The notes under the pieces were generated by a model. That model did no database searches, was not told the DNA's origin, and was given only the letters and a program-made list of their open reading frames with translations. This document shows, in pieces, positions 51,504 to 59,608 of a stretch of 64,000 nt of DNA. Numbering within the stretch: the first letter of the stretch is position 1; every line of letters begins with the position of its first letter. The stretch covers positions 504 to 64,503 of the forward strand of contig JALXEF010000048.1 in the NCBI GenBank assembly GCA_027069855.1. The letters are read 5' to 3'. This DNA is from a candidate division WOR-3 bacterium (GTDB lineage: Bacteria; Hydrothermota; Hydrothermia; WGAB01). The position numbers were made by a program, and so were the translations under genes.

Positions 51504-51695
51504 GCCCCGGTGTTCCGTTCTGCAACAGGGGTTCATGTCCGTCGGCTGCTTCCTCCCGTCCATAGAAACCCTATCCGGTCAACATTGGCCTATAAACCGG
51601 CATGACCCCCAAAGGGCCCGCCGCTTTGGCAGAGGGTTTGCATACCTTCAGGGTGGCTTCCGATGCACTGAACTGCGAAACAAAAGGAGGGCATC

Positions 51696-52766
51696 ATGAA
51701 GCGGCTTGTTGCAGGACTCGCAGTCATCGGGTTGGTCCTGGTGCTCGGGACCAACTGTAAGAAAACCGAGGAGGAAACTCCCGGTCCCGAGCAAACGCTG
51801 CCGACCTCGCTCCACGGCACCACCTACGGCATGAAGTACTGGTACGAAGTCGCCCAACCGCAGGGGTTCATCCAGTACACCAACATCCCCTACGACTCCC
51901 TGGGCTGCTACCACTGCCACATTGATGTGGAGGAATACGGCTGCAGCCAGTGCCACGAGACCCCGGGCGACAAACCCGCTGCGGACAAGTGCTACGCCTG
52001 CCACGGACGCGAAAAGAAGGAGAGCATGTTCTACAGCGATGTGCACCGCGACGCCGGCCTGGTGTGCGCCGACTGCCATAAGGGCGAGGAGGTCCACGGC
52101 GACGGCAACCACTACAACACCATGTATGTGAGCCCCCACGAGCCTAAGTGTGAGGACTGCCACAACCCCAGCGATCTGCCGCAGCACGCGGAGCACGCCA
52201 TGCACCTGAACAACCTCCACTGCACCGCCTGCCACGCCCAGGCCGTGATCTCCTGCTATAGCTGCCACTTCCAGTCCATGACCCAGTACGGCATCAAACT
52301 CGCCTACGGTGTGCTGAAGGACTGGCTCTTCCTGGCCAACAACCCCGACGGCAAGGTGCAGGCAGCCATCCTGATGCCGCTGGAGTACGGCGAGGGCAAA
52401 ACCTTCATGGCCATCGGCCGGTATGTGCCGCACACCATCACCAAGGAGAACGCGCGGCACTGCTCCGACTGCCACGACAACGCGGCGGCCCACGAATACC
52501 TGGAGACCGGCGAGATCGTGTGCACCTGGTGGAACCCGGATTCCGCCCGCCTGGAGCACCTGACGGGCGTGATCCCCATTCCGCCGGACTACCAGACCGC
52601 GCTGAAGTTCACCTACATGCAGTGCGTGAGCGGCTGCGACGATCCGGAAACCGCCCAGTGGGAACCCATCGAACCGCAAGGGGTGACCAACGCCTGGCAG
52701 ATGCTGGACGAGTCCTGTGAGCCCCTCACCCGTGAGCAGATCGAAAAACTGGCGGAACCCCACTGA
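51696..52766 (+). CDS. Octaheme c-type cytochrome, secreted (possible lipoprotein)
   Basis: 356 aa with RBS AAAGGAGG. Signal peptide MKRLVAGLAVIGLVLVLGTNC, with Cys after an atypical lipobox. Eight CXXCH motifs: CYHCH, CSQCH, CYACH, CADCH, CEDCH, CTACH, CYSCH, CSDCH. Five further Cys in the C-terminal 80 aa. Confidence 0.85.
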   Translation: MKRLVAGLAVIGLVLVLGTNCKKTEEETPGPEQTLPTSLHGTTYGMKYWYEVAQPQGFIQYTNIPYDSLGCYHCHIDVEEYGCSQCHETPGDKPAADKCYACHGREKKESMFYSDVHRDAGLVCADCHKGEEVHGDGNHYNTMYVSPHEPKCEDCHNPSDLPQHAEHAMHLNNLHCTACHAQAVISCYSCHFQSMTQYGIKLAYGVLKDWLFLANNPDGKVQAAILMPLEYGEGKTFMAIGRYVPHTITKENARHCSDCHDNAAAHEYLETGEIVCTWWNPDSARLEHLTGVIPIPPDYQTALKFTYMQCVSGCDDPETAQWEPIEPQGVTNAWQMLDESCEPLTREQIEKLAEPH

Positions 52767-52790
52767 TCCGCCTTTCCGGGCCATAGGCTT

Positions 52791-52820
52791 GCTGCGGGGC
52801 CCTGCATTGGGCCCCGCAGC
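52791..52820 (+). promoter_or_regulatory. Perfect 12-bp GC-rich hairpin (GCTGCGGGGCCC-tgcatt-GGGCCCCGCAGC) between the octaheme cytochrome and beta-barrel genes
   Basis: Read directly from the sequence; followed by CGTTTAAACG and then the RBS AAAGGAGG of the next gene. Candidate partial terminator or mRNA-processing/stability element setting operon stoichiometry. Confidence 0.4.
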
Positions 52821-52848: not shown

Positions 52849-54018
52849 ATGGGCGTTTTGTGGACCGTTCTCCTGGCCTGGACCCTGAACGGGGGGCTGG
52901 GGCTCAGCGTGGTCCCCTATGCGGTGACCGATTCCACCCGCGATGTCTCCGTCGCCCCCTATCTCCGGGTCCAGGCCCTGAATCCTCTGCCCGGCCTTTC
53001 CGTGAACCTGGCGCTCCGGGGGTACCGGGCGGACACCGCCCGGCCGAAGGCCCCGGCCCTGCGGCTGCTCGTGGCCAATATCCACTTCCAGCGCCCCGGT
53101 GTGCCGGTAACCCTTTGTGTGGGCCGCCAGTTCCAGTACCTCGGGCTCGGCGGCCTGGTGGACGGCGCCTCCGTGGGCTTCCGGCTGAACCGCGCCGAAC
53201 TCTCGGCCCTGCTGGGATACCGCGCCCCCTCGGTGTTTGACGATACCACGGGCCTGGAGATCCGGAGCCAGAACCCCCTGTTCGCCGTTCAGGCCCGGAT
53301 GGATCCCCTGGCCCGGCTTCAGGTGTATGCGGGCTACGGCCGCGAAGGCCTTGAGGACACCGTGGTACAGGCCCCCCTGTGGCTCGGATTCCGGTCCTAC
53401 GACCACGCCTGGAACCTGGAAGGGGAACTGGCCTACGACCTGGAATACTCGGTGCTCAGTCGCGGCCGCCTCAGCGCTTCGTACCGGATCCCCCGGGCCC
53501 TGCTTCACTTCCACTACCGGTACCAGGACCCCTGGCGCGATTTTCTGAAACTCACCCTGCCCTCCTGGCTCCGCGACGACCCCGTGAAGTACAGCATCCC
53601 CACCCATCGCCTGGAGGCCTCGGTGCGACTCCAGGATCCCCTGCCCGGCGCCTCCTTCGGCCTCTTTTACGCGTACAACACCGAAACCTCCTATCGCCAC
53701 CTGTGGATGGCCTATCGGCTTCAGCGGCTGTACTTCCGGGTGTGGACCGGCCAGGAATGGGAGGGCACGGCATACGGCGGCCTCCTCACCTATAGCCATC
53801 GCCTGAACCCACAACTTTCTGCCCTGCTCCAGCTTCGCCTGGCCAAAAGCCCCCGCTACGACGGCCTGGTGTACAGCCTCCGCCCCCGCCTGGTGTGGCG
53901 CTTCCCCGGCTCGGGCCTCTCGGTACAGGCCGAGTTCCGCTTCTGGAAACTGCCCGGCGTCCAATGGGAAACCCAGGGCTATCTGGGTCTGCACCTGCCC
54001 TTCAGCAGGAGGTTTTGA
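52849..54018 (+). CDS. Predicted outer-membrane beta-barrel (porin-like) protein of the cytochrome cluster
   Basis: 389 aa. Signal peptide, alternating hydrophobic/polar beta-strand pattern rich in Y/R/L/G throughout, and a C-terminal ...LPFSRRF ending in Phe as in OMP sorting signals. No Cys and no heme motifs. Confidence 0.65.
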   Translation: MGVLWTVLLAWTLNGGLGLSVVPYAVTDSTRDVSVAPYLRVQALNPLPGLSVNLALRGYRADTARPKAPALRLLVANIHFQRPGVPVTLCVGRQFQYLGLGGLVDGASVGFRLNRAELSALLGYRAPSVFDDTTGLEIRSQNPLFAVQARMDPLARLQVYAGYGREGLEDTVVQAPLWLGFRSYDHAWNLEGELAYDLEYSVLSRGRLSASYRIPRALLHFHYRYQDPWRDFLKLTLPSWLRDDPVKYSIPTHRLEASVRLQDPLPGASFGLFYAYNTETSYRHLWMAYRLQRLYFRVWTGQEWEGTAYGGLLTYSHRLNPQLSALLQLRLAKSPRYDGLVYSLRPRLVWRFPGSGLSVQAEFRFWKLPGVQWETQGYLGLHLPFSRRF

Positions 54019-54021
54019 GCC

Positions 54022-54825
54022 ATGCAAGCCCTGCTTTTGCTTCTTGTGACCTGGACCTTTCCGCATCAGTTGCATGTGGTGGAAATGGGCCTGGAGTGCG
54101 CCGCCTGCCACGGCGCTGTGGAAACCAGCACCAAAAGCACCGATATGCTGCTGCCCGACCCCTCGGTGTGCCAGGAGTGCCACGAGAACAGCATGGGGTA
54201 CCAGCAGCCCGCCCAGGCCCCGGTCCTGATCGCCCATTTCCCCCACCAAACCCACCTGAGCCAGGGAGTGTCCTGCACCGTATGCCACGGCGACACGGCC
54301 TACCCCACCCTGCCCCGGATGGCCACCTGTATGACCTGCCACAACGGCGACCAGGCCCCCAACACCTGCACCACCTGCCACGAAGAGCACGATTCCCGGT
54401 TTGCCACCTATCACCCGCCGGCCTGGCTCTCCCTGCACGGCGACTTCGCCCGCACCCAGATCCCCTCGTGCCGGATGTGCCACCCCACCACCCAGGCGCT
54501 GGCCGATCCGTCGCCTTCGCCCTCCTGTGAAACCTGCCACGAGCAGGAGAACCTCAAACTCCAGGTGCACCCCAAAACCTTCCTCTACACCCACGCCGAG
54601 GCCTTCGCCACCCGGCAAATGGACTGCGCCGCCTGCCACCGGAACTACCAGGACTGCCTGTCGTGCCACCAGCAGCAGGCCTCCATTCCGCTGGATCACC
54701 TGAACCCCGGATGGGTGGCGGAGGGGCTCCACGGCACCGAAGCCCGGATCAATCCGGACCGGTGCCTCGTGTGCCACGGCGAACAGCAGAATACCTGTCA
54801 GCGCTGCCACTCCGGGAGACCGTAA
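54022..54825 (+). CDS. Undecaheme c-type cytochrome (c7/c3-polymer-like), secreted
   Basis: 267 aa with a signal peptide. Eleven CXXCH motifs: CAACH, CQECH, CTVCH, CMTCH, CTTCH, CRMCH, CETCH, CAACH, CLSCH, CLVCH, CQRCH. About 24 aa per heme. It starts 4 nt after the barrel gene stop. Confidence 0.85.
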   Translation: MQALLLLLVTWTFPHQLHVVEMGLECAACHGAVETSTKSTDMLLPDPSVCQECHENSMGYQQPAQAPVLIAHFPHQTHLSQGVSCTVCHGDTAYPTLPRMATCMTCHNGDQAPNTCTTCHEEHDSRFATYHPPAWLSLHGDFARTQIPSCRMCHPTTQALADPSPSPSCETCHEQENLKLQVHPKTFLYTHAEAFATRQMDCAACHRNYQDCLSCHQQQASIPLDHLNPGWVAEGLHGTEARINPDRCLVCHGEQQNTCQRCHSGRP

Positions 54826-54905: not shown

Positions 54906-55766
54906 ATGCGGGTCATTGAAAGCAACCGGGAAATGCAGCAGGTGGCCGACGAGCTCCGCCGCCAGGGCAAAACCATCGGCTTCGTGCCCACCATGGGCGC
55001 CCTGCACGAAGGCCACCTGTCCCTCGTGCGCTGCAGTACCGACGAAAACGATGTCACCGTTGTCTCCATCTTCGTCAACCCCACCCAGTTCGGGCCCAAC
55101 GAGGACTACGAGCGCTACCCGCGGGACCCCGAGGGCGACCTGGCCAAGTGCGAGCGCGCCGGCGTGGACATCGTGTTCATGCCCACGGTAGAGGAGATGT
55201 ACCCCGAGGGCTATGTCACCTATGTGGAGGTGACCGGCCACCTCACCCAAACCCTGTGCGGGGCCTTCCGGCCGGGGCACTTCCGGGGCGTGACCACCGT
55301 GGTCACCAAGCTCTTTGAAGCGGTGAAACCCCACCGGGCCTACTTCGGCAAAAAGGATTACCAGCAGTGGCGAGTGATCCAGCGGATGGTGCGCGATTTG
55401 AACATGCCGGTGGAAATCATCGGTTGTCCCATCGTCCGCGAGCCCGATGGCCTGGCCATGAGTTCTCGAAACCGCTACCTGTCGGAGGAGGAACGCCGTT
55501 CCGCCCTCGCGCTCTACCGGGGGCTCTTGATGGCCCGCGAACGCATCCTCAACGGCGAACGCGACACCTCCCGCATCATCCGCGAGGTGTTTGAGTTCAT
55601 TGAATCGCACCCCCATGTGCGCAAGATTGACTATGTGGCCGTGGTGGACCCGGAAACCCTCCAGCCCGTGGGACGGCTGGAATCCGGGCAACAGGTGCTC
55701 GTGGCCGTGGCCGTGCATGTGGGCCCGGCCCGGCTGATTGACAACATGGAGATCCAGGTGCCATGA
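54906..55766 (+). CDS. panC: Pantoate--beta-alanine ligase
   Basis: 286 aa. [10 protein letters not shown] and [10 protein letters not shown] motifs. Confidence 0.95.
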
Positions 55767-56104
55767 AGCGGCTGGTGCTGAAGTCCAAGATCCACCGGGT
55801 GCGGGTGACCGGCACCCACCTGGGCTACGAGGGGAGCATCACCCTGGGGCCGGAGTACCTGGAACAGGCCGATCTCGTGCCCTATGAACGGGTGGACATC
55901 TACAACATCACCAACGGTGCCCGGTTTTCCACCTATGTGATCCGGGGCAAGCCCGGAGAGGTCATCCTGAACGGGGCCGCCGCCCGGCTGGCCCAGCCCG
56001 GCGACCTCCTGATCATCGCCGCCTACACCTGGATGGACGACGAGGAACTCAAGGAGTTCCGCCCCAGGGTGGTGATTGTGGAGCCCGGGGACGGGGCAGC
56101 CTGA
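55763..56104 (+). CDS. panD: Aspartate 1-decarboxylase
   Basis: 113 aa. [28 protein letters not shown] with the Gly-Ser self-processing site. ATGA-coupled to panC. Confidence 0.95.
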
Positions 56105-56804
56105 GGTCCATCACCCCTTCCAGAAATTCCAGCAACGGATCCAGCAGGCCGGAAACGGACTCGCTGCCGGCCTGGCTCAGGGGCGTTTTCTGCAGTTTCT
56201 GAAGCCGGGCCAGGCCTTGGGTTCCCACGAACACCACCGGTGCCTGGGCCTGGCGCGCGCAGGAGGAGCACAGGGCGCCCCCCTCGGTTGCCGCAAGATA
56301 GGCCACCCGCCGATCGCCGCAGCGGCGGCAACGGTCCAGCCGGGGCGGATATCCCAGCACCTCCGCCGCCCGCAGCAGAAAGGCCACGAAAAGGGCCTCG
56401 GAGGGGCCGTGGGTGGCCAGTTGATGAAACACGCGTTCCAGCAGGGTGTAGAGCCGCGGGGCCGGGGTGTCTTCTGGTACCAGGTGCCGGATCCAGTCAA
56501 ACAGGAGTGCGGCCGCGCGTTGCCGGTCGTAAGAGGTCCGCAGGGCCGGATAGGCCTGCAGGATCCGGGCCTCCTGGAGGGTCTGGATCTCCCGGGTGTC
56601 CCGCCGGTGCACCACCGTTTCAATCACATGGAAGGGCTCCAGGGTGGACACCCAGCGGCTTTTGGGGCGCCGCGCACCCCGCACCAGCACCTTGATCCGC
56701 CCCAGGCGATAGGTGAAGAGTTCGTAGATGGCCGTGGCCTCCTGATAGGGAATCCGGCGGAACACCACGGCCCGGGTGCGGACCCGCTGGGGCAGCGAAG
56801 GCAT
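56049..56804 (-). CDS. recO: DNA repair protein RecO
   Basis: 251 aa. N-terminal OB fold (AVVFRRIPYQEATAIYELFT) and C-terminal CxxC...CxxC zinc motif (CRRCG...CSSC). The 3' end overlaps panD convergently by 56 nt. Confidence 0.8.
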   Translation of the reverse strand: MPSLPQRVRTRAVVFRRIPYQEATAIYELFTYRLGRIKVLVRGARRPKSRWVSTLEPFHVIETVVHRRDTREIQTLQEARILQAYPALRTSYDRQRAAALLFDWIRHLVPEDTPAPRLYTLLERVFHQLATHGPSEALFVAFLLRAAEVLGYPPRLDRCRRCGDRRVAYLAATEGGALCSSCARQAQAPVVFVGTQGLARLQKLQKTPLSQAGSESVSGLLDPLLEFLEGVMDLRLPRPRAPQSPPWGGTP

Positions 56805-56805
56805 G

Positions 56806-57012
56806 TCAGCCGCGGGACACCACCTCTAAGATGAACAGGCGGTCGCCCTGCCGCACCGGCTCGTCCTCGGTGAGCACCTCCTCGTTGCGGAACACCAGCA
56901 CCTCTTCCGGGTTCAGGTTCAGGTGCCGCAGGAGGTCCAGGACCCGGCGCACCCGTTTGTCCACCGGGATCACCCGGTTCCGGAATTCCACTTCCACATA
57001 GGGCTGGCTCAT
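56806..57012 (-). CDS. Hypothetical 68-aa protein (possible beta-grasp/ThiS-MoaD-like fold), translationally coupled between the M16 pair and recO
   Basis: ATG at 57012-57010 is ATGA-coupled to the stop of the upstream M16 gene, and there is a 1-nt gap to the recO start. Sequence MSQPYVEVEFRNRVIPVDKRVRRVLDLLRHLNLNPEEVLVFRNEEVLTEDEPVRQGDRLFILEVVSRG. The ORF-track N-terminal extension was rejected. Confidence 0.45.
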   Translation of the reverse strand: MSQPYVEVEFRNRVIPVDKRVRRVLDLLRHLNLNPEEVLVFRNEEVLTEDEPVRQGDRLFILEVVSRG

Positions 57013-58307
57013 GGCCGGCCTTGCTCCTGGAGCAGCAGATACCCCACAAAGGGCTCGGGGTACTGCTTCAAAAAGGCCTGGATCTCCTCCGGGCTCACCT
57101 GCTCCAGCCGGCGGACGAGGTCCAGGGCCATCTCGGCCCCCGGTCCCAGGTACTCGTAGGTCAACAGGCTGGAAAGCAGCGACTGTGACGACGATTCCCG
57201 CATGTAGGTGAGGGTTTGCCACAGGTTCAGCACATGCTGCTTTTCCTCAGGGGTGATGGGCCGGGCCTGGAAGGCGTGCAGGGTTTTCTTCAAAAGTTCC
57301 AGGGCCCTGTCCGGCTCGGTGCTGGAAAAGTAGAGGTATCCGTAATTGGCGCGGTTCAGGGAAAGGCCCGCCCACACGGCGTAGGACAGGCCGTAGCCGG
57401 TGCGGATGGTATCCCCCAGGGCCTGCGAAAGGACCTGCATGGCCGCAAAGCCCGTGGGGAACTCGGGGTCCCGGGGCGAGGGCGCAGGGAACTTGGCGGC
57501 GAAGTAGGCCGTGATGATGGGCATGGTTTCGTGGTACACAAGGTCGCTGTCCGGCCGGGAGAAGGCCGGCACCTCGGGGTCCACAAAGTCCCCCTTGGGC
57601 AGGGTGCCGAAGGTTTCGTTGAGCCAGGCCAGCACGCTGTCCCGGTCAAAGGCGCCGGTGACGCCGATCAGGAGTTCGGAGGCCGTGAGATGGGCCGGCA
57701 GGTAGGCCCGGACCTGGTCCAGGGTGAACCGTTCCAGGGTTTCCGGGGTGCCGTCGGGCCGTACCTGGTAAGGATGCCCGGCATAGAACTTCTGGTTGAG
57801 CCGGAGCCACACCCGCTCGTCGGGGTTCTGCTCCTTCATGCGGGCCCGGGCCAGGAGCTGGCGCCGCACCTTTTCAAAGGCCGTGGGGTTCCACTCGGGG
57901 TGCATCAGGCCGTCGGCCAGAAGGCGCACAGCCTTGTGGGCGTAGAGTTCCACGGCGCGTGCGGTGACCAGCAAAAAGTCGTTGCGGGGCGGCTGCACCG
58001 ACAGGTCGATGCCGTACGCGTAAGCCTCTTCGCGGAACCGGGGATAGGGCAGGTTCTCGGAGCCCTGGAGCGCCGCGCTCACGGCGAGGTACTCCAGGCC
58101 GTCTTCGCCCTGCTGCAGTTTGGCGGCACCCCCCTTGAACAGCACCCCCACCGACACCGTGGGCACCTCGGGCAGGTAATAGAGCACCACCGGCAACCCG
58201 TTCTTCAGGTGCACCCGTTCCACCTGGGGCCGGGCCGGTTGCGAGGTGCACCCGGCGGCCAGCACCGCCAGGGTCCATCCGAAGATCCAGATGCTGGTTT
58301 TCCGCAT
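57009..58307 (-). CDS. M16-family peptidase partner subunit (no HxxEH), lipoprotein
   Basis: 432 aa. Lipobox LAAGC. M16 fold features but no zinc motif. Confidence 0.8.
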   Translation of the reverse strand: MRKTSIWIFGWTLAVLAAGCTSQPARPQVERVHLKNGLPVVLYYLPEVPTVSVGVLFKGGAAKLQQGEDGLEYLAVSAALQGSENLPYPRFREEAYAYGIDLSVQPPRNDFLLVTARAVELYAHKAVRLLADGLMHPEWNPTAFEKVRRQLLARARMKEQNPDERVWLRLNQKFYAGHPYQVRPDGTPETLERFTLDQVRAYLPAHLTASELLIGVTGAFDRDSVLAWLNETFGTLPKGDFVDPEVPAFSRPDSDLVYHETMPIITAYFAAKFPAPSPRDPEFPTGFAAMQVLSQALGDTIRTGYGLSYAVWAGLSLNRANYGYLYFSSTEPDRALELLKKTLHAFQARPITPEEKQHVLNLWQTLTYMRESSSQSLLSSLLTYEYLGPGAEMALDLVRRLEQVSPEEIQAFLKQYPEPFVGYLLLQEQGRP

Positions 58308-58309
58308 GG

Positions 58310-59608
58310 CTACTTCTCCTCGGTGGGATAAAGGATCCCCGTGGCATGGGGTTGATCCACCAGGTACCGGCGCACGAAGTCGGGGAACGCATCCAGAGGC
58401 ACCTGGCGGATCTGCTCCACATAGGTCTGGTAGTAGTCGTAGCCGGCCACCGTGATCCAGAAGGCCAGGCCCACGGCGTAGCGGCTGGGAACCTCCTGAT
58501 CCTTCAGGTAGTCGATTTCCACGGCGCGCTTGGCGTTTTCCAGGGCCTCCTCGGTGTAGAACTCCGGTTGGGCCATCTCCTGAACAAAGCGGGCGAGCCG
58601 CCGCCGGAGCCGGGGCACCTTTTCCGGCTCGGTCACGAAGTAAAAGCTGAGTTCGCCGCCGTAGCGTTGGGTGTAGTACCCGAAGGACGCCGAGGTGGCC
58701 AGCCCCGAATCCACGAACACCGTTTGAAACCGGGACCCCGGAGCGTTCAGCAGGGTGCCCAGGAGATCGGCCACATAGGTGTCTTCGGTTTGCTGTCCCA
58801 CATTGGGCCCGGCGTAGAGCACATAGACATAGGCGTGCTCCGCCGGCAACCGGAGTTCCACCGTACGGCTCTCCTGCACATGGGGCACAGGGTCCACCTG
58901 GGGCGGCGGGGCCTGGTTTTCCCAGCCGCCGAAGGCTTCCTCAATGTACCGGCGGGCGGTGGCGAAATCCAGGTCGCCGGCCACGATCAGATTGCAGTTG
59001 TTGGGGTTGTAGTGGTTGCGCTGGATCTGGAGCATCAGGTCGCGGGTGGCATGCTTGATCTGGGCGCTGTCGCCGATCACATTCTTCCGGTAAAACCAGG
59101 GGCCGTAAAAGGCCCGCCGGGTTTCCTGGTACAGCTGGTAGGTGGGCTGGGAGAAGTCGCGGCGGAACTCGTCCATCACCACCTGGATTTCCCGGTGGAG
59201 CTCCTCCTCATCAAACCGGGGCGAGATCATGGCCGCGGCCATGAAGTCCAGGCCCTCCCTGAGCAACCGGCTGGGCAGGGTGTAGTGGTATTCCACCTGC
59301 TCGGTGGAGGTGGACCCGTTGTAGACGATGCCCAGTTCCCGGAGCCGCTTTTTGAAGGCCAGTTGATCCGGATACTTGGCGTTGCCCTTGAAGAGCATGT
59401 GCTCGTACAGGTGAAACAGGCCGTTGGTTATGGAATCCTCGTAGGTACCCCCGGCGTGGAAGGAGGTGACGATGGTCACCAGGGGCACGATGCGGTTCTT
59501 CACCAGGTACACATGCAGGCCGTTGTCCAGGGTGAAGGTCTGGATCTCTGCGGCCTGCAGGCCACTCCACCCCAGCAACAGGGCCAGGGCTAAGGTCCAG
59601 CGGTTCAT
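58310..59608 (-). CDS. M16-family zinc peptidase, catalytic subunit
   Basis: 432 aa with a signal peptide. HLYEHMLF (HxxEH) and downstream Glu residues. Confidence 0.85.
   Translation of the reverse strand: MNRWTLALALLLGWSGLQAAEIQTFTLDNGLHVYLVKNRIVPLVTIVTSFHAGGTYEDSITNGLFHLYEHMLFKGNAKYPDQLAFKKRLRELGIVYNGSTSTEQVEYHYTLPSRLLREGLDFMAAAMISPRFDEEELHREIQVVMDEFRRDFSQPTYQLYQETRRAFYGPWFYRKNVIGDSAQIKHATRDLMLQIQRNHYNPNNCNLIVAGDLDFATARRYIEEAFGGWENQAPPPQVDPVPHVQESRTVELRLPAEHAYVYVLYAGPNVGQQTEDTYVADLLGTLLNAPGSRFQTVFVDSGLATSASFGYYTQRYGGELSFYFVTEPEKVPRLRRRLARFVQEMAQPEFYTEEALENAKRAVEIDYLKDQEVPSRYAVGLAFWITVAGYDYYQTYVEQIRQVPLDAFPDFVRRYLVDQPHATGILYPTEEK

What the first reader, a model, noticed from the sequence alone, without database searches (positions are those of the whole stretch)
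51696..52766. Octaheme cytochrome with atypical lipobox and Cys-rich, heme-free C-terminal module
All 8 CXXCH motifs lie within residues ~70-285. The last ~80 aa contain five additional cysteines (CTWW, CVSGC, CEP) with no heme motif, so a disulfide-stabilised or metal-binding domain may be appended to the heme core. The signal peptide ends ...LVLGTNC. Cys is at the expected lipobox position but is preceded by Asn, which is unusual for SPase II sites, so the lipoprotein versus soluble fate is ambiguous. That choice determines whether this subunit is the extracellular (OmcB/MtrC-like) or the periplasmic (OmaB/MtrA-like) component.
Basis: seen in the sequence. Interest (0 to 1): 0.6.

Follow-up and report, generated by a model that had tools for sequence, protein, structure and literature searches.

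The report
Surface octaheme cytochrome of a porin conduit
This gene encodes a lipid-anchored eight-heme protein, distantly related to the tetrathionate-reducing octaheme enzyme of Shewanella, that most likely sits on the cell surface as the outer end of a three-gene electron conduit through the outer membrane.

Summary
The ORF (51696-52766, +, 356 aa) is real and has eight CXXCH motifs (aa 71-260). The C-terminal tail has four extra cysteines, not five. They are not conserved: C276 varies between near-identical strains, CVSGC occurs in 8/121 relatives, and C341 in 10/121. A "Cys-rich module" is therefore not supported. The tail is part of a conserved beta-rich domain that starts at about aa 184 and embeds hemes 7 and 8.

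The odd LGTN|C site aligns with canonical lipoboxes in the closest relatives, so it is most likely a lipoprotein. Other relatives carry T9SS sorting domains, FN3 domains, or 2-3 tandem copies of the module, which points to the cell surface.

Downstream lie a predicted 22-strand outer-membrane barrel (B) and an 11-heme, 3.1 kDa/heme periplasmic cytochrome (C). The B-C pair recurs elsewhere with a different lipoprotein cytochrome in first position.

Verdict: an outer module of a porin-cytochrome conduit, from an uncharacterised OTR-related family.

The parts
51684..51691 (+). Ribosome-binding site AAGGAGGG of gene A, 5 nt before the ATG
   Evidence: Read from the sequence.
51696..52766 (+). Gene A: octaheme c-type cytochrome, 356 aa, probable lipoprotein. 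It belongs to the M-type subfamily of an uncharacterised OTR-related family.
51696..51758 (+). Signal peptide plus atypical lipobox L-G-T-N-C21, followed by the tether CKKTEEETPGPEQT
   Evidence: C21 aligns with the Cys of the canonical lipoboxes STGC, VIGC, ASGC and LTGC in the closest relatives. LGTNC is invariant in 9 strain variants. K followed by acidic residues resembles the Bacteroidetes lipoprotein export signal K-(D/E)2 (PMC5080379). The export-signal reading is inference.
51831..51833 (+). Codon of Met46, the K/M switch column and candidate axial ligand of heme 1
   Evidence: The column reads K 91, M 26, other 4 of 121, and is flanked by G45 (120/121) and near H40 (120/121). It covaries with positions 72-85 around the heme 1 motif. 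Equivalence to OTR Lys56 was tested by sequence and is inconclusive.
51906..52475 (+). Heme-binding region, aa 71-260, with eight CXXCH motifs. Hemes 1-6 align with OTR hemes 2-7.
52245..52763 (+). Beta-rich domain, aa 184-356, embedding hemes 7 and 8. The tail holds the non-conserved cysteines C276, C310, C314 and C341.
   Evidence: DSSP of the model, with pLDDT 90-98 in this region. Conserved motifs GVIPxPPDW...W.FLK...PLT.EQ. Cys statistics.
52791..52820 (+). Intercistronic hairpin between A and B, with a 12-bp GC stem and a 6-nt loop
   Evidence: RNA fold z = -3.65. In the 92% identical relative the stem arms are identical and the loop differs at 5 of 6 bases.
52849..54018 (+). Gene B: 389-aa outer-membrane beta-barrel (about 22 strands), with no Pfam or NCBIfam family
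   Evidence: AlphaFold model pLDDT 81.6, 22 long strands. Best Foldseek matches are the 24-strand usher pores FimD and PapC, TM 0.5-0.57, plus porins. 13.6% aromatic residues and a C-terminal Phe. Only 8 relatives among 1.8 billion representatives.
54022..54825 (+). Gene C: 267-aa cytochrome with 11 CXXCH motifs, 3.1 kDa per heme, a short signal peptide and no lipobox. Probable periplasmic or in-barrel wire.
   Evidence: Homologs lie immediately downstream of B homologs in L001, L032, L087 and L088.

Best explanation
Gene A encodes the outer, cell-surface module of a three-part porin-cytochrome conduit.

Proposed mechanism (inferred unless marked otherwise):
- A is exported by Sec, lipidated at Cys21 and displayed on the outer face of the outer membrane. 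It is tethered by an acidic linker of about 16 residues.
- C, an 11-heme peptide-minimal cytochrome, threads or plugs the roughly 22-strand barrel B and carries electrons from the periplasm across the membrane.
- A's eight-heme chain passes the electrons on to an extracellular acceptor such as a mineral, humic material or a partner cell. Some soluble oxyanions are also possible acceptors. The direction of flow is not determined.

Shown by tools: the heme motifs, the family, the barrel fold, the gene order, and the remote homology of the heme core to octaheme tetrathionate reductase. A belongs to a widespread, uncharacterised family. Most members carry Lys at column 46. This protein carries Met there and has a shortened loop between hemes 1 and 2. 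I read that as a heme 1 that is fully ligated (for example His/Met) and serves electron transfer rather than catalysis.

Inferred, not shown: lipidation, surface exposure, contact between A and the B/C complex, and the ligand role of residue 46.
For: Lipoprotein:
- C21 aligns with canonical lipoboxes in P0002-P0008.
- 62/121 relatives have a lipobox-like site.

Surface location:
- 21/121 relatives have an SPI signal plus a T9SS C-terminal domain, PF18962.
- Others have FN3 or Cys-rich N-terminal extensions.
- The complete module is repeated 2-3 times head to tail in single polypeptides with 16 or 24 hemes. That fits a wire better than an enzyme.

Conduit:
- B is a predicted 22-strand barrel resembling large translocation pores.
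- C has 11 hemes at 3.1 kDa per heme.
- The A-B-C order is kept in L001 and in an AT-rich Hydrothermales genome, L032, at 45%, 22% and 31% identity.
- In L087 and L089 the B gene (with a C homolog downstream in L087) is preceded by a non-homologous 8-heme cytochrome, which in L087 carries a lipobox and a similar C-TKKE tether. The first position therefore looks like an exchangeable outer cytochrome.
- A T9SS-type homolog lies beside a multiheme/cytochrome-b fusion gene, further multiheme cytochromes, a 421-aa protein with no Pfam hit (a possible porin) and heme-biosynthesis genes.

Not an OTR-family enzyme:
- There is no TIGR04315 or PF11783 hit, while OTR controls score 476-543 bits.
- Residue 46 is Met.
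Against: - Asn at -1 is outside the canonical lipobox, and no predictor or experiment was available.
- In most genomes the homolog is not next to a barrel or another cytochrome. In Gemmatimonadota it follows NrfC/NrfD-like genes. The conduit context is therefore lineage-specific.
- The fold's only solved relative is an enzyme, OTR.
- Ligand counting gives six conserved non-motif His plus K/M46 for eight hemes. One heme may therefore be open or unusually ligated, as in catalytic cytochromes.
- Physical interaction of A with B/C is untested.
Confidence: 0.6

Rival explanations
1. A is an OTR-like reductase enzyme, for a substrate such as tetrathionate, nitrite, hydroxylamine, sulfite or another soluble compound. 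It would be anchored as a lipoprotein, and the catalytic heme would correspond to OTR heme 2. B and C would merely feed it electrons or be unrelated.
For: - hhalign gives 98.6% for the whole family and 99.8% (E 2.6e-30, 213 columns) for K-type members.
- Hemes 1-6 align with OTR hemes 2-7.
- Most family members have Lys at column 46 and an OTR-like long loop after heme 1.
- OTR ligates its active heme with a remote Lys56 despite a normal CXXCH motif (PMC3769277).
- Gemmatimonadota homologs sit next to NrfC/NrfD-like genes.
- Only 7 conserved candidate distal ligands exist for 8 hemes.
Against: - This protein has Met46 and the short loop.
- K46 = Lys56 equivalence is not supported by sequence alignment of the N-terminal segment.
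- The protein fails the OTR family HMMs.
- Tandem 2-3x module fusions and T9SS export are unusual for a soluble-substrate enzyme.
- The operon partners are a large barrel and a wire-like cytochrome.
- At 5.4 kDa per heme it is leaner than OTR's 6.1 (PMC7096707).
Confidence: 0.2
2. The architecture is the same, but electrons flow inward. A would take electrons from Fe(II), reduced minerals or a partner cell and pass them through B/C to the periplasm, as an MtoAB/PioAB-like oxidising conduit with an added surface module.
For: - A Met ligand at heme 1, if real, would raise that heme's potential, as is typical of His/Met hemes (established knowledge).
- Nothing in the window fixes the direction. 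There is no quinol dehydrogenase or terminal reductase next to the cluster.
- Some carriers are aerobes, for example Fervidibacter sacchari (PMC11535203).
Against: There is no positive evidence for an oxidising role. A T9SS-type relative lies beside a multiheme/cytochrome-b fusion gene and further multiheme cytochromes of the kind seen in metal-reducer clusters. The ligand assignment is itself unproven.
Confidence: 0.15
3. A is the periplasmic (MtrA/OmaB-like) component, retained on the inner face of a membrane or released by signal peptidase I after VLG. C would then be the extracellular component.
For: Asn at -1 is non-canonical for signal peptidase II. V-L-G|T would be an acceptable signal peptidase I site, as read from the sequence.
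Against: - The Cys is conserved at this position, with canonical lipoboxes in relatives.
- Relatives are exported by T9SS.
- C lacks a lipobox or any anchor and has the 3 kDa/heme composition of in-barrel wires.
- The swapped first-position cytochrome in L087 is also a lipoprotein.
Confidence: 0.05

Closest known systems
Octaheme tetrathionate reductase (OTR, SO_4144, PDB 1sp3; TIGR04315 / PF11783)
   Same: - Eight CXXCH hemes.
- Profile-profile homology covers hemes 1-6 of A and hemes 2-7 of OTR, including the distal-His motifs DVH(R/M), HGDG/H and HxxH.
- Most family members carry a Gly-Lys upstream of the equivalent heme, as OTR does.
   Different: - No hit to the OTR family models.
- It lacks OTR heme 1 and the GGGG-x-VKHGD insertion.
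- It has an extra heme (CYxCH, aa 187) plus a beta-hairpin insertion.
- It is shorter, at 336 mature residues against about 440.
- It is lipoprotein- or T9SS-anchored.
- This member has Met instead of Lys. Equivalence of that position to Lys56 is unproven.
MtrCAB of Shewanella and the OmbB-OmaB-OmcB porin-cytochrome complexes of Geobacter
   Same: The three-gene logic is shared: a lipoprotein multiheme cytochrome, a large outer-membrane barrel and a peptide-minimal periplasmic multiheme cytochrome. The outer cytochrome is exchangeable between related clusters. The profile of A also matches MtrA weakly (E 1.7e-10, motif-driven).
   Different: - There is no family-level sequence match of A to MtrC/OmcA (TIGR03507), and B and C have no above-threshold match to any curated Mtr or porin-cytochrome family.
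- A has 8 hemes and an OTR-like fold, not the two-pentaheme staggered cross.
- B has about 22 strands and 389 aa, and only 8 relatives in 1.8 billion representatives.
- The gene order is outer cytochrome, then barrel, then periplasmic cytochrome.
OcwA, nonaheme surface terminal reductase of Thermincola (PDB 6I5B)
   Same: It sets a precedent: a cell-surface terminal reductase whose heme arrangement follows the NrfA/MccA design rather than the MtrC design, and which contains non-bis-His hemes (PMC7096707). A 2026 preprint reports OcwA-like cytochromes in porin clusters of peat bacteria (10.64898/2026.05.27.727921).
   Different: OcwA did not appear among the structural or sequence matches of A. 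It has nine hemes, occurs in a monoderm organism and has no barrel partner.

Membership tests
Tetrathionate reductase family octaheme cytochrome (TIGR04315 / PF11783) | Score above the curated cut-off of the family model | tested here: not met
   There is no TIGR04315 hit even at E<=10 for A or for the K-type relative P0014. Two OTR-family controls score 476 and 543 bits against a cut-off of 375. PF11783 is absent from the Pfam scan.
Tetrathionate reductase family octaheme cytochrome (TIGR04315 / PF11783) | Homologous heme core with eight CXXCH motifs and an OTR-like fold | tested here: met
Tetrathionate reductase family octaheme cytochrome (TIGR04315 / PF11783) | Active-site heme ligated by a remote lysine (Lys56) despite a CXXCH motif | tested here: inconclusive
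   The candidate column 46 reads K in 91/121 relatives but Met in this protein. Alignment of the N-terminal segments to OTR does not place K46 on Lys56 with any confidence.
Tetrathionate reductase family octaheme cytochrome (TIGR04315 / PF11783) | Tetrathionate, nitrite or hydroxylamine reductase activity | not testable with these tools
   This needs purified protein.
Porin-cytochrome conduit (functional class: MtrCAB, Pcc) | Adjacent gene for a large outer-membrane beta-barrel | tested here: met
   Gene B models with 22 strands at pLDDT 81.6. Foldseek matches outer-membrane barrels at E down to 1e-9.
Porin-cytochrome conduit (functional class: MtrCAB, Pcc) | Adjacent periplasmic peptide-minimal multiheme cytochrome | tested here: met
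   Gene C has 11 CXXCH motifs in 267 aa (3.1 kDa per heme), a signal peptide and no lipobox. It co-occurs with B in four loci.
Porin-cytochrome conduit (functional class: MtrCAB, Pcc) | Extracellular multiheme lipoprotein docked on the barrel, with electron transfer across the membrane | not testable with these tools
   This is inferred from the lipobox alignment, the T9SS-bearing relatives and the gene order.
OmcA/MtrC decaheme family (TIGR03507, PF22113) | Family model hit and the two-pentaheme / two-beta-barrel four-domain fold | tested here: not met
Bacterial lipoprotein (Lgt/Lsp substrate) | Lipobox [LVI][ASTVI][GAS]-C after a signal peptide | tested here: inconclusive
   The sequence is L-G-T-N-C, and Asn at -1 is outside the consensus. 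The Cys column is shared with canonical lipoboxes in the nearest relatives. LGTNC is fixed in 9 strains. No SignalP or LipoP predictor was available.

The most novel reading that the evidence does not exclude
The family is a compact, surface-displayed offshoot of the OTR enzyme superfamily. In it, one residue (column 46, Lys or Met) and the loop after heme 1 switch the first heme between two states: an OTR-like, lysine-ligated, substrate-accessible state and a fully ligated electron-transfer state. On this reading the window protein is a de-enzymed OTR relative, recruited as the exchangeable outer cytochrome of an otherwise orphan barrel/undecaheme conduit. Its relatives polymerise the same module into 16- and 24-heme surface wires.
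Probability: 0.25. Interest if true: 0.75.

Novelty: new variant of a known kind. Interest (0 to 1): 0.55.

Why it matters
Porin-cytochrome conduits are the known route for electrons across the outer membrane. Their outer cytochromes have been characterised in only a few Proteobacteria and Geobacter. Three points make this case useful.

- **A widespread but unstudied outer module.** It occurs in 197 species genomes across WOR-3, Hydrothermae, Armatimonadota, Gemmatimonadota, Acidobacteriota, Kryptonia, Ignavibacteria, Planctomycetota, Bipolaricaulota and other phyla. Its ancestry is an octaheme reductase, not MtrC or OmcB.
- **A concrete model system.** The family could show how catalytic multiheme enzymes are converted into wires, or the reverse. 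The K/M switch is directly testable.
- **A cultured carrier.** Fervidibacter sacchari PD1 carries a homolog and can be grown.

The result also warns against reading lineage-specific cysteines as domains.

Tried and rejected
- **Curated family scans of A.** Pfam and NCBIfam gave only sub-threshold c3/c7/ExtM-type motif hits.
- **PDB sequence search with A alone.** Nothing useful; a spurious match to a designed Kelch repeat.
- **Cys-rich or metal-binding C-terminal domain.** Rejected on conservation.
- **HAO, ONR, NrfA or MccA membership.** Only short, motif-level profile matches, E 1e-5 to 1e-3.
- **Aligning column 46 to OTR Lys56.** I tried global, local and segment-only hhalign. No confident placement.
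- **Universal synteny of A with B and C.** Rejected: only 2 of 80 genome loci have B and C by tblastn, and most have A alone.
- **Search for B relatives.** Only 4, then 8, proteins were found.
- **Organism identification.** Cluster look-ups and contig look-ups returned no names. Placement near WOR-3/Hydrothermae rests only on best hits.
- **Literature searches.** I found no description of this family.

Full report
**Observation**

The ORF at 51696-52766 (+) is real. It starts with ATG, has a GGAGG ribosome-binding site 5 nt upstream, encodes 356 aa, and has GC3 of 0.87 in a 64% GC window. It has exactly eight CXXCH motifs, at aa 71, 83, 99, 124, 152, 176, 187 and 256, and no CXXCK or CX3-4CH motif.

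There are four (C276, C310, C314, C341), and the fifth non-heme cysteine is C21 of the signal peptide. The N-terminus is MKRLVAGLAVIGLVLVLGTN-C21-KKTEEE. Asn at -1 is indeed unusual: the three other lipoprotein-like N-termini in this window read LALGC, LAGSC and LAAGC.

**The family**

A word-indexed search found 152 homologs. A scan of one genome per GTDB species found relatives in 197 species. These include WOR-3 (49% identity, the nearest named), Hydrothermae, Armatimonadota including the cultured Fervidibacter sacchari, Gemmatimonadota, Acidobacteriota, Kryptonia, Ignavibacteria, Planctomycetota, Bipolaricaulota, Nitrospirota and Calditrichota.

No curated Pfam or NCBIfam family covers the protein. 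Only sub-threshold c3/c7-type matches appear. I found no paper describing the family.

**The cysteines and the C-terminal region**

In a 121-sequence alignment:
- The C276 column has Cys in no other sequence.
- C310/C314 (CVSGC) occur in 8 sequences, the immediate subclade.
- C341 occurs in 10.

Among nine strain variants more than 90% identical, residue 276 is Cys in three and Ala in six. With C276 dispensable, three cysteines remain. At most a local C310-C314 bridge is plausible. A disulfide-stabilised or metal-binding module is therefore not supported.

The C-terminal 90 residues are nevertheless strongly conserved, with motifs GVIPxPPDW, W322 and PLT.EQ..KL. The AlphaFold model (39-sequence alignment, pLDDT 88, pTM 0.84) shows beta strands from aa 184 to 336. 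These enclose the motifs of hemes 7 (187) and 8 (256), with pLDDT of 90-98. The tail is therefore half of a beta-rich heme-bearing domain and not an appended heme-free module.

**Lipoprotein or soluble?**

The seven closest homologous clusters (45-57% identity) have canonical lipoboxes: LSTGC, LVIGC, LASGC, AVWSC, VTVAC, SIVAC and LTGC. In each, the Cys aligns exactly with C21 and is followed by K/Q-K and acidic residues. LGTNC is fixed in all nine strain variants.

The post-Cys sequence CKKTEEE resembles the Bacteroidetes surface-lipoprotein export signal K-(D/E)2 (PMC5080379). That resemblance is a lead only. I conclude the protein is most likely lipidated at C21. This remains an inference, because no predictor or experiment was available.

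**Inside or outside?**

Of the 121 relatives:
- 62 have a lipobox-like site.
- 21 have instead an ordinary signal peptide plus a C-terminal T9SS sorting domain, PF18962 with the NYPNPF motif.
- Others carry FN3 domains or Cys-rich N-terminal repeats.

In Planctomycetota, Deferribacteres, KSB1 and Melioribacteraceae genomes, among others, the complete module is repeated two or three times head to tail in one polypeptide, giving 16 or 24 hemes. Each copy has its own SLH..G(K/M) and PLT..Q boundary motifs. T9SS export and wire-like concatenation both point to a cell-surface, electron-conducting role.

**The neighbours**

Gene B (52849-54018, 389 aa) has no family assignment. It has only eight relatives among 1.8 billion representative proteins. 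It is 13.6% aromatic and ends in Phe. AlphaFold (pLDDT 81.6) gives 22 long strands. Foldseek matches outer-membrane barrels, best the 24-strand usher pores FimD and PapC (TM 0.5-0.57, E 1e-9).

Gene C (54022-54825, 267 aa) has 11 CXXCH motifs at 3.1 kDa per heme, a short hydrophobic N-terminus and no lipobox.

The A-B-C order is kept in the 92% identical relative and in an AT-rich Hydrothermales genome, where A, B and C are 45%, 22% and 31% identical. B homologs from other metagenomes are again followed by a C homolog (44% identity). In two of them, however, B is preceded by a different, non-homologous multiheme cytochrome. Its complete copy (L087) has eight hemes, a lipobox and the tether VGAC-TKKE.

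The barrel and undecaheme are thus the conserved core, and the first gene is an exchangeable lipoprotein cytochrome. That is the pattern expected if it is the outer module.

Elsewhere the family occurs in other contexts:
- Alone in most genomes.
- After NrfC/NrfD-like genes in Gemmatimonadota.
- Beside a multiheme/cytochrome-b fusion gene, further multiheme cytochromes, a 421-aa protein with no Pfam hit (a possible porin) and heme-biosynthesis genes, for a T9SS-type member.

**Relation to octaheme enzymes**

The evidence for homology to OTR is as follows.
- Foldseek against the PDB found nothing significant.
- A family profile matches OTR at E 7.5e-10, comparable with MtrA at 1.7e-10. Weaker matches are MccA at 9e-6, and ONR and NrfA at about 1e-3.
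- I rebuilt an OTR-family alignment. Profile-profile comparison gives 98.6% probability, E 1.3e-15, over 129 columns. A's hemes 1-6 lie on OTR hemes 2-7 and share the distal-histidine motifs.
- Split by subfamily, the Lys-type members give 99.8%, E 2.6e-30, over 213 columns reaching into the C-terminal domain. The Met-type members, including this protein, give 97.9%.

Homology of the core to OTR is therefore established. Membership is not:
- Neither A nor a K-type relative hits TIGR04315 at E<=10, while two OTR controls score 476-543 bits against a cut-off of 375.
- The family lacks OTR heme 1 and the GGGG..KHGD insertion.
- It has an extra heme plus a beta insertion.

**The K/M column**

OTR's active heme is attached by a normal CXXCH motif but ligated by the remote Lys56 (PMC3769277). 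Absence of CXXCK therefore does not exclude an OTR-type site.

In this family, column 46 follows G45, which is conserved in 120/121 sequences. It lies six residues after H40 (120/121) and 25 residues before heme 1. It reads Lys in 91 sequences, Met in 26 and something else in 4. This protein has Met. Both residues are classic heme ligands.

The state of this column covaries with positions 72, 73, 76-81 and 85 around the heme 1 motif. K-type members have a loop of about 19 residues between hemes 1 and 2, as OTR has after its heme 2. M-type members have 7 residues.

Conserved non-motif histidines number six: H40, H117, H134 (replaced by Met in 4 sequences), H167, H170 and H246. With K/M46, that makes seven candidate distal ligands for eight hemes. 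At least one heme is therefore probably not bis-His.

Whether residue 46 is the structural equivalent of Lys56 could not be decided.

**Conclusion**

The best-supported reading (confidence 0.6) is that A is the lipid-anchored, surface-exposed outer cytochrome of a conduit formed with barrel B and undecaheme C. It comes from an uncharacterised family that descends from the same stock as OTR. In this member the Lys-to-Met change and loop loss suggest an electron-transfer heme rather than a catalytic one.

The main rival is an OTR-like reductase acting on a soluble substrate (0.2). It is more plausible for the K-type relatives than for this protein. The direction of electron flow is open (0.15 for an uptake conduit). 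A periplasmic role for A is unlikely (0.05).

OcwA of Thermincola shows that an NrfA/MccA-like multiheme protein can be a surface terminal reductase with mixed heme ligation (PMC7096707). "Reductase" and "conduit" are therefore not mutually exclusive.

**Side observation**

A 12-bp GC hairpin lies between A and B, at 52791-52820. In the 92% identical relative the stem arms are unchanged while five of six loop bases differ. This suggests a selected RNA structure, possibly one that sets the A:B/C expression ratio.

Noticed in passing
window 52791-52820: A perfect 12-bp GC-rich hairpin lies between the stop of gene A and the start of gene B, with no T-run (fold z = -3.65). In the 92% identical relative L081 both stem arms are identical while 5 of 6 loop bases differ. 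This suggests selection on the structure, possibly a transcript-stabilising or attenuating element.
   Followed up: partly
window 54906-59608 versus L081 13398-20202: Upstream genes (acyl-CoA dehydrogenase, holA-like, TPR, coaE) are the same in the window and in the 92% relative. Downstream genes differ. The window has panC, panD, recO and two M16 peptidases. L081 has an ArsR-like gene, DUF1302, a DUF1329-like gene and an RND/MMPL transporter. The A-B-C cassette therefore abuts a rearrangement breakpoint.
   Followed up: no
L030 4912-7917, L042 4741-7866, L047 953-4390, L048, L066, L067: The whole octaheme module is fused head to tail two or three times in one polypeptide (16 or 24 hemes). This occurs both in Met-type lipoproteins (Planctomycetota) and in Lys-type T9SS proteins. 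Larger 25- and 34-heme proteins (L079, L073) contain one module.
   Followed up: partly
L005 28-7017 (Gemmatimonadota MAG): The homolog is preceded by a sigma-54/PAS regulator, an NrfC-like 4Fe-4S protein, an NrfD-like membrane protein and a 423-aa protein with two glycine-cleavage-H domains. This is an unusual partner set, and related ORFs recur in 7-12 other loci.
   Followed up: partly
L087 210-3358 and L089 2-1709: Homologs of barrel B (27-33% identity) are preceded by a different multiheme cytochrome unrelated to A; the complete copy (L087) is a 372-aa, 8-heme lipoprotein. In L087 a C homolog (44% identity) follows B. The outer cytochrome is swapped between related clusters.
   Followed up: yes
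window 52849-54018: Barrel protein B is nearly an orphan. Exhaustive HMMER against 1.8 billion representative proteins found only 8 relatives.
   Followed up: yes
window 51648-52784 (- strand): A 378-aa ORF runs antisense to gene A. Equivalent antisense ORFs cluster across 64 loci. This is an artefact of high GC content and conserved sense coding, not a gene.
   Followed up: partly
L089 2508-3446: A NosD/beta-helix protein with a T9SS sorting tail lies near a B homolog. At least some organisms carrying this barrel therefore have type IX secretion.
   Followed up: no
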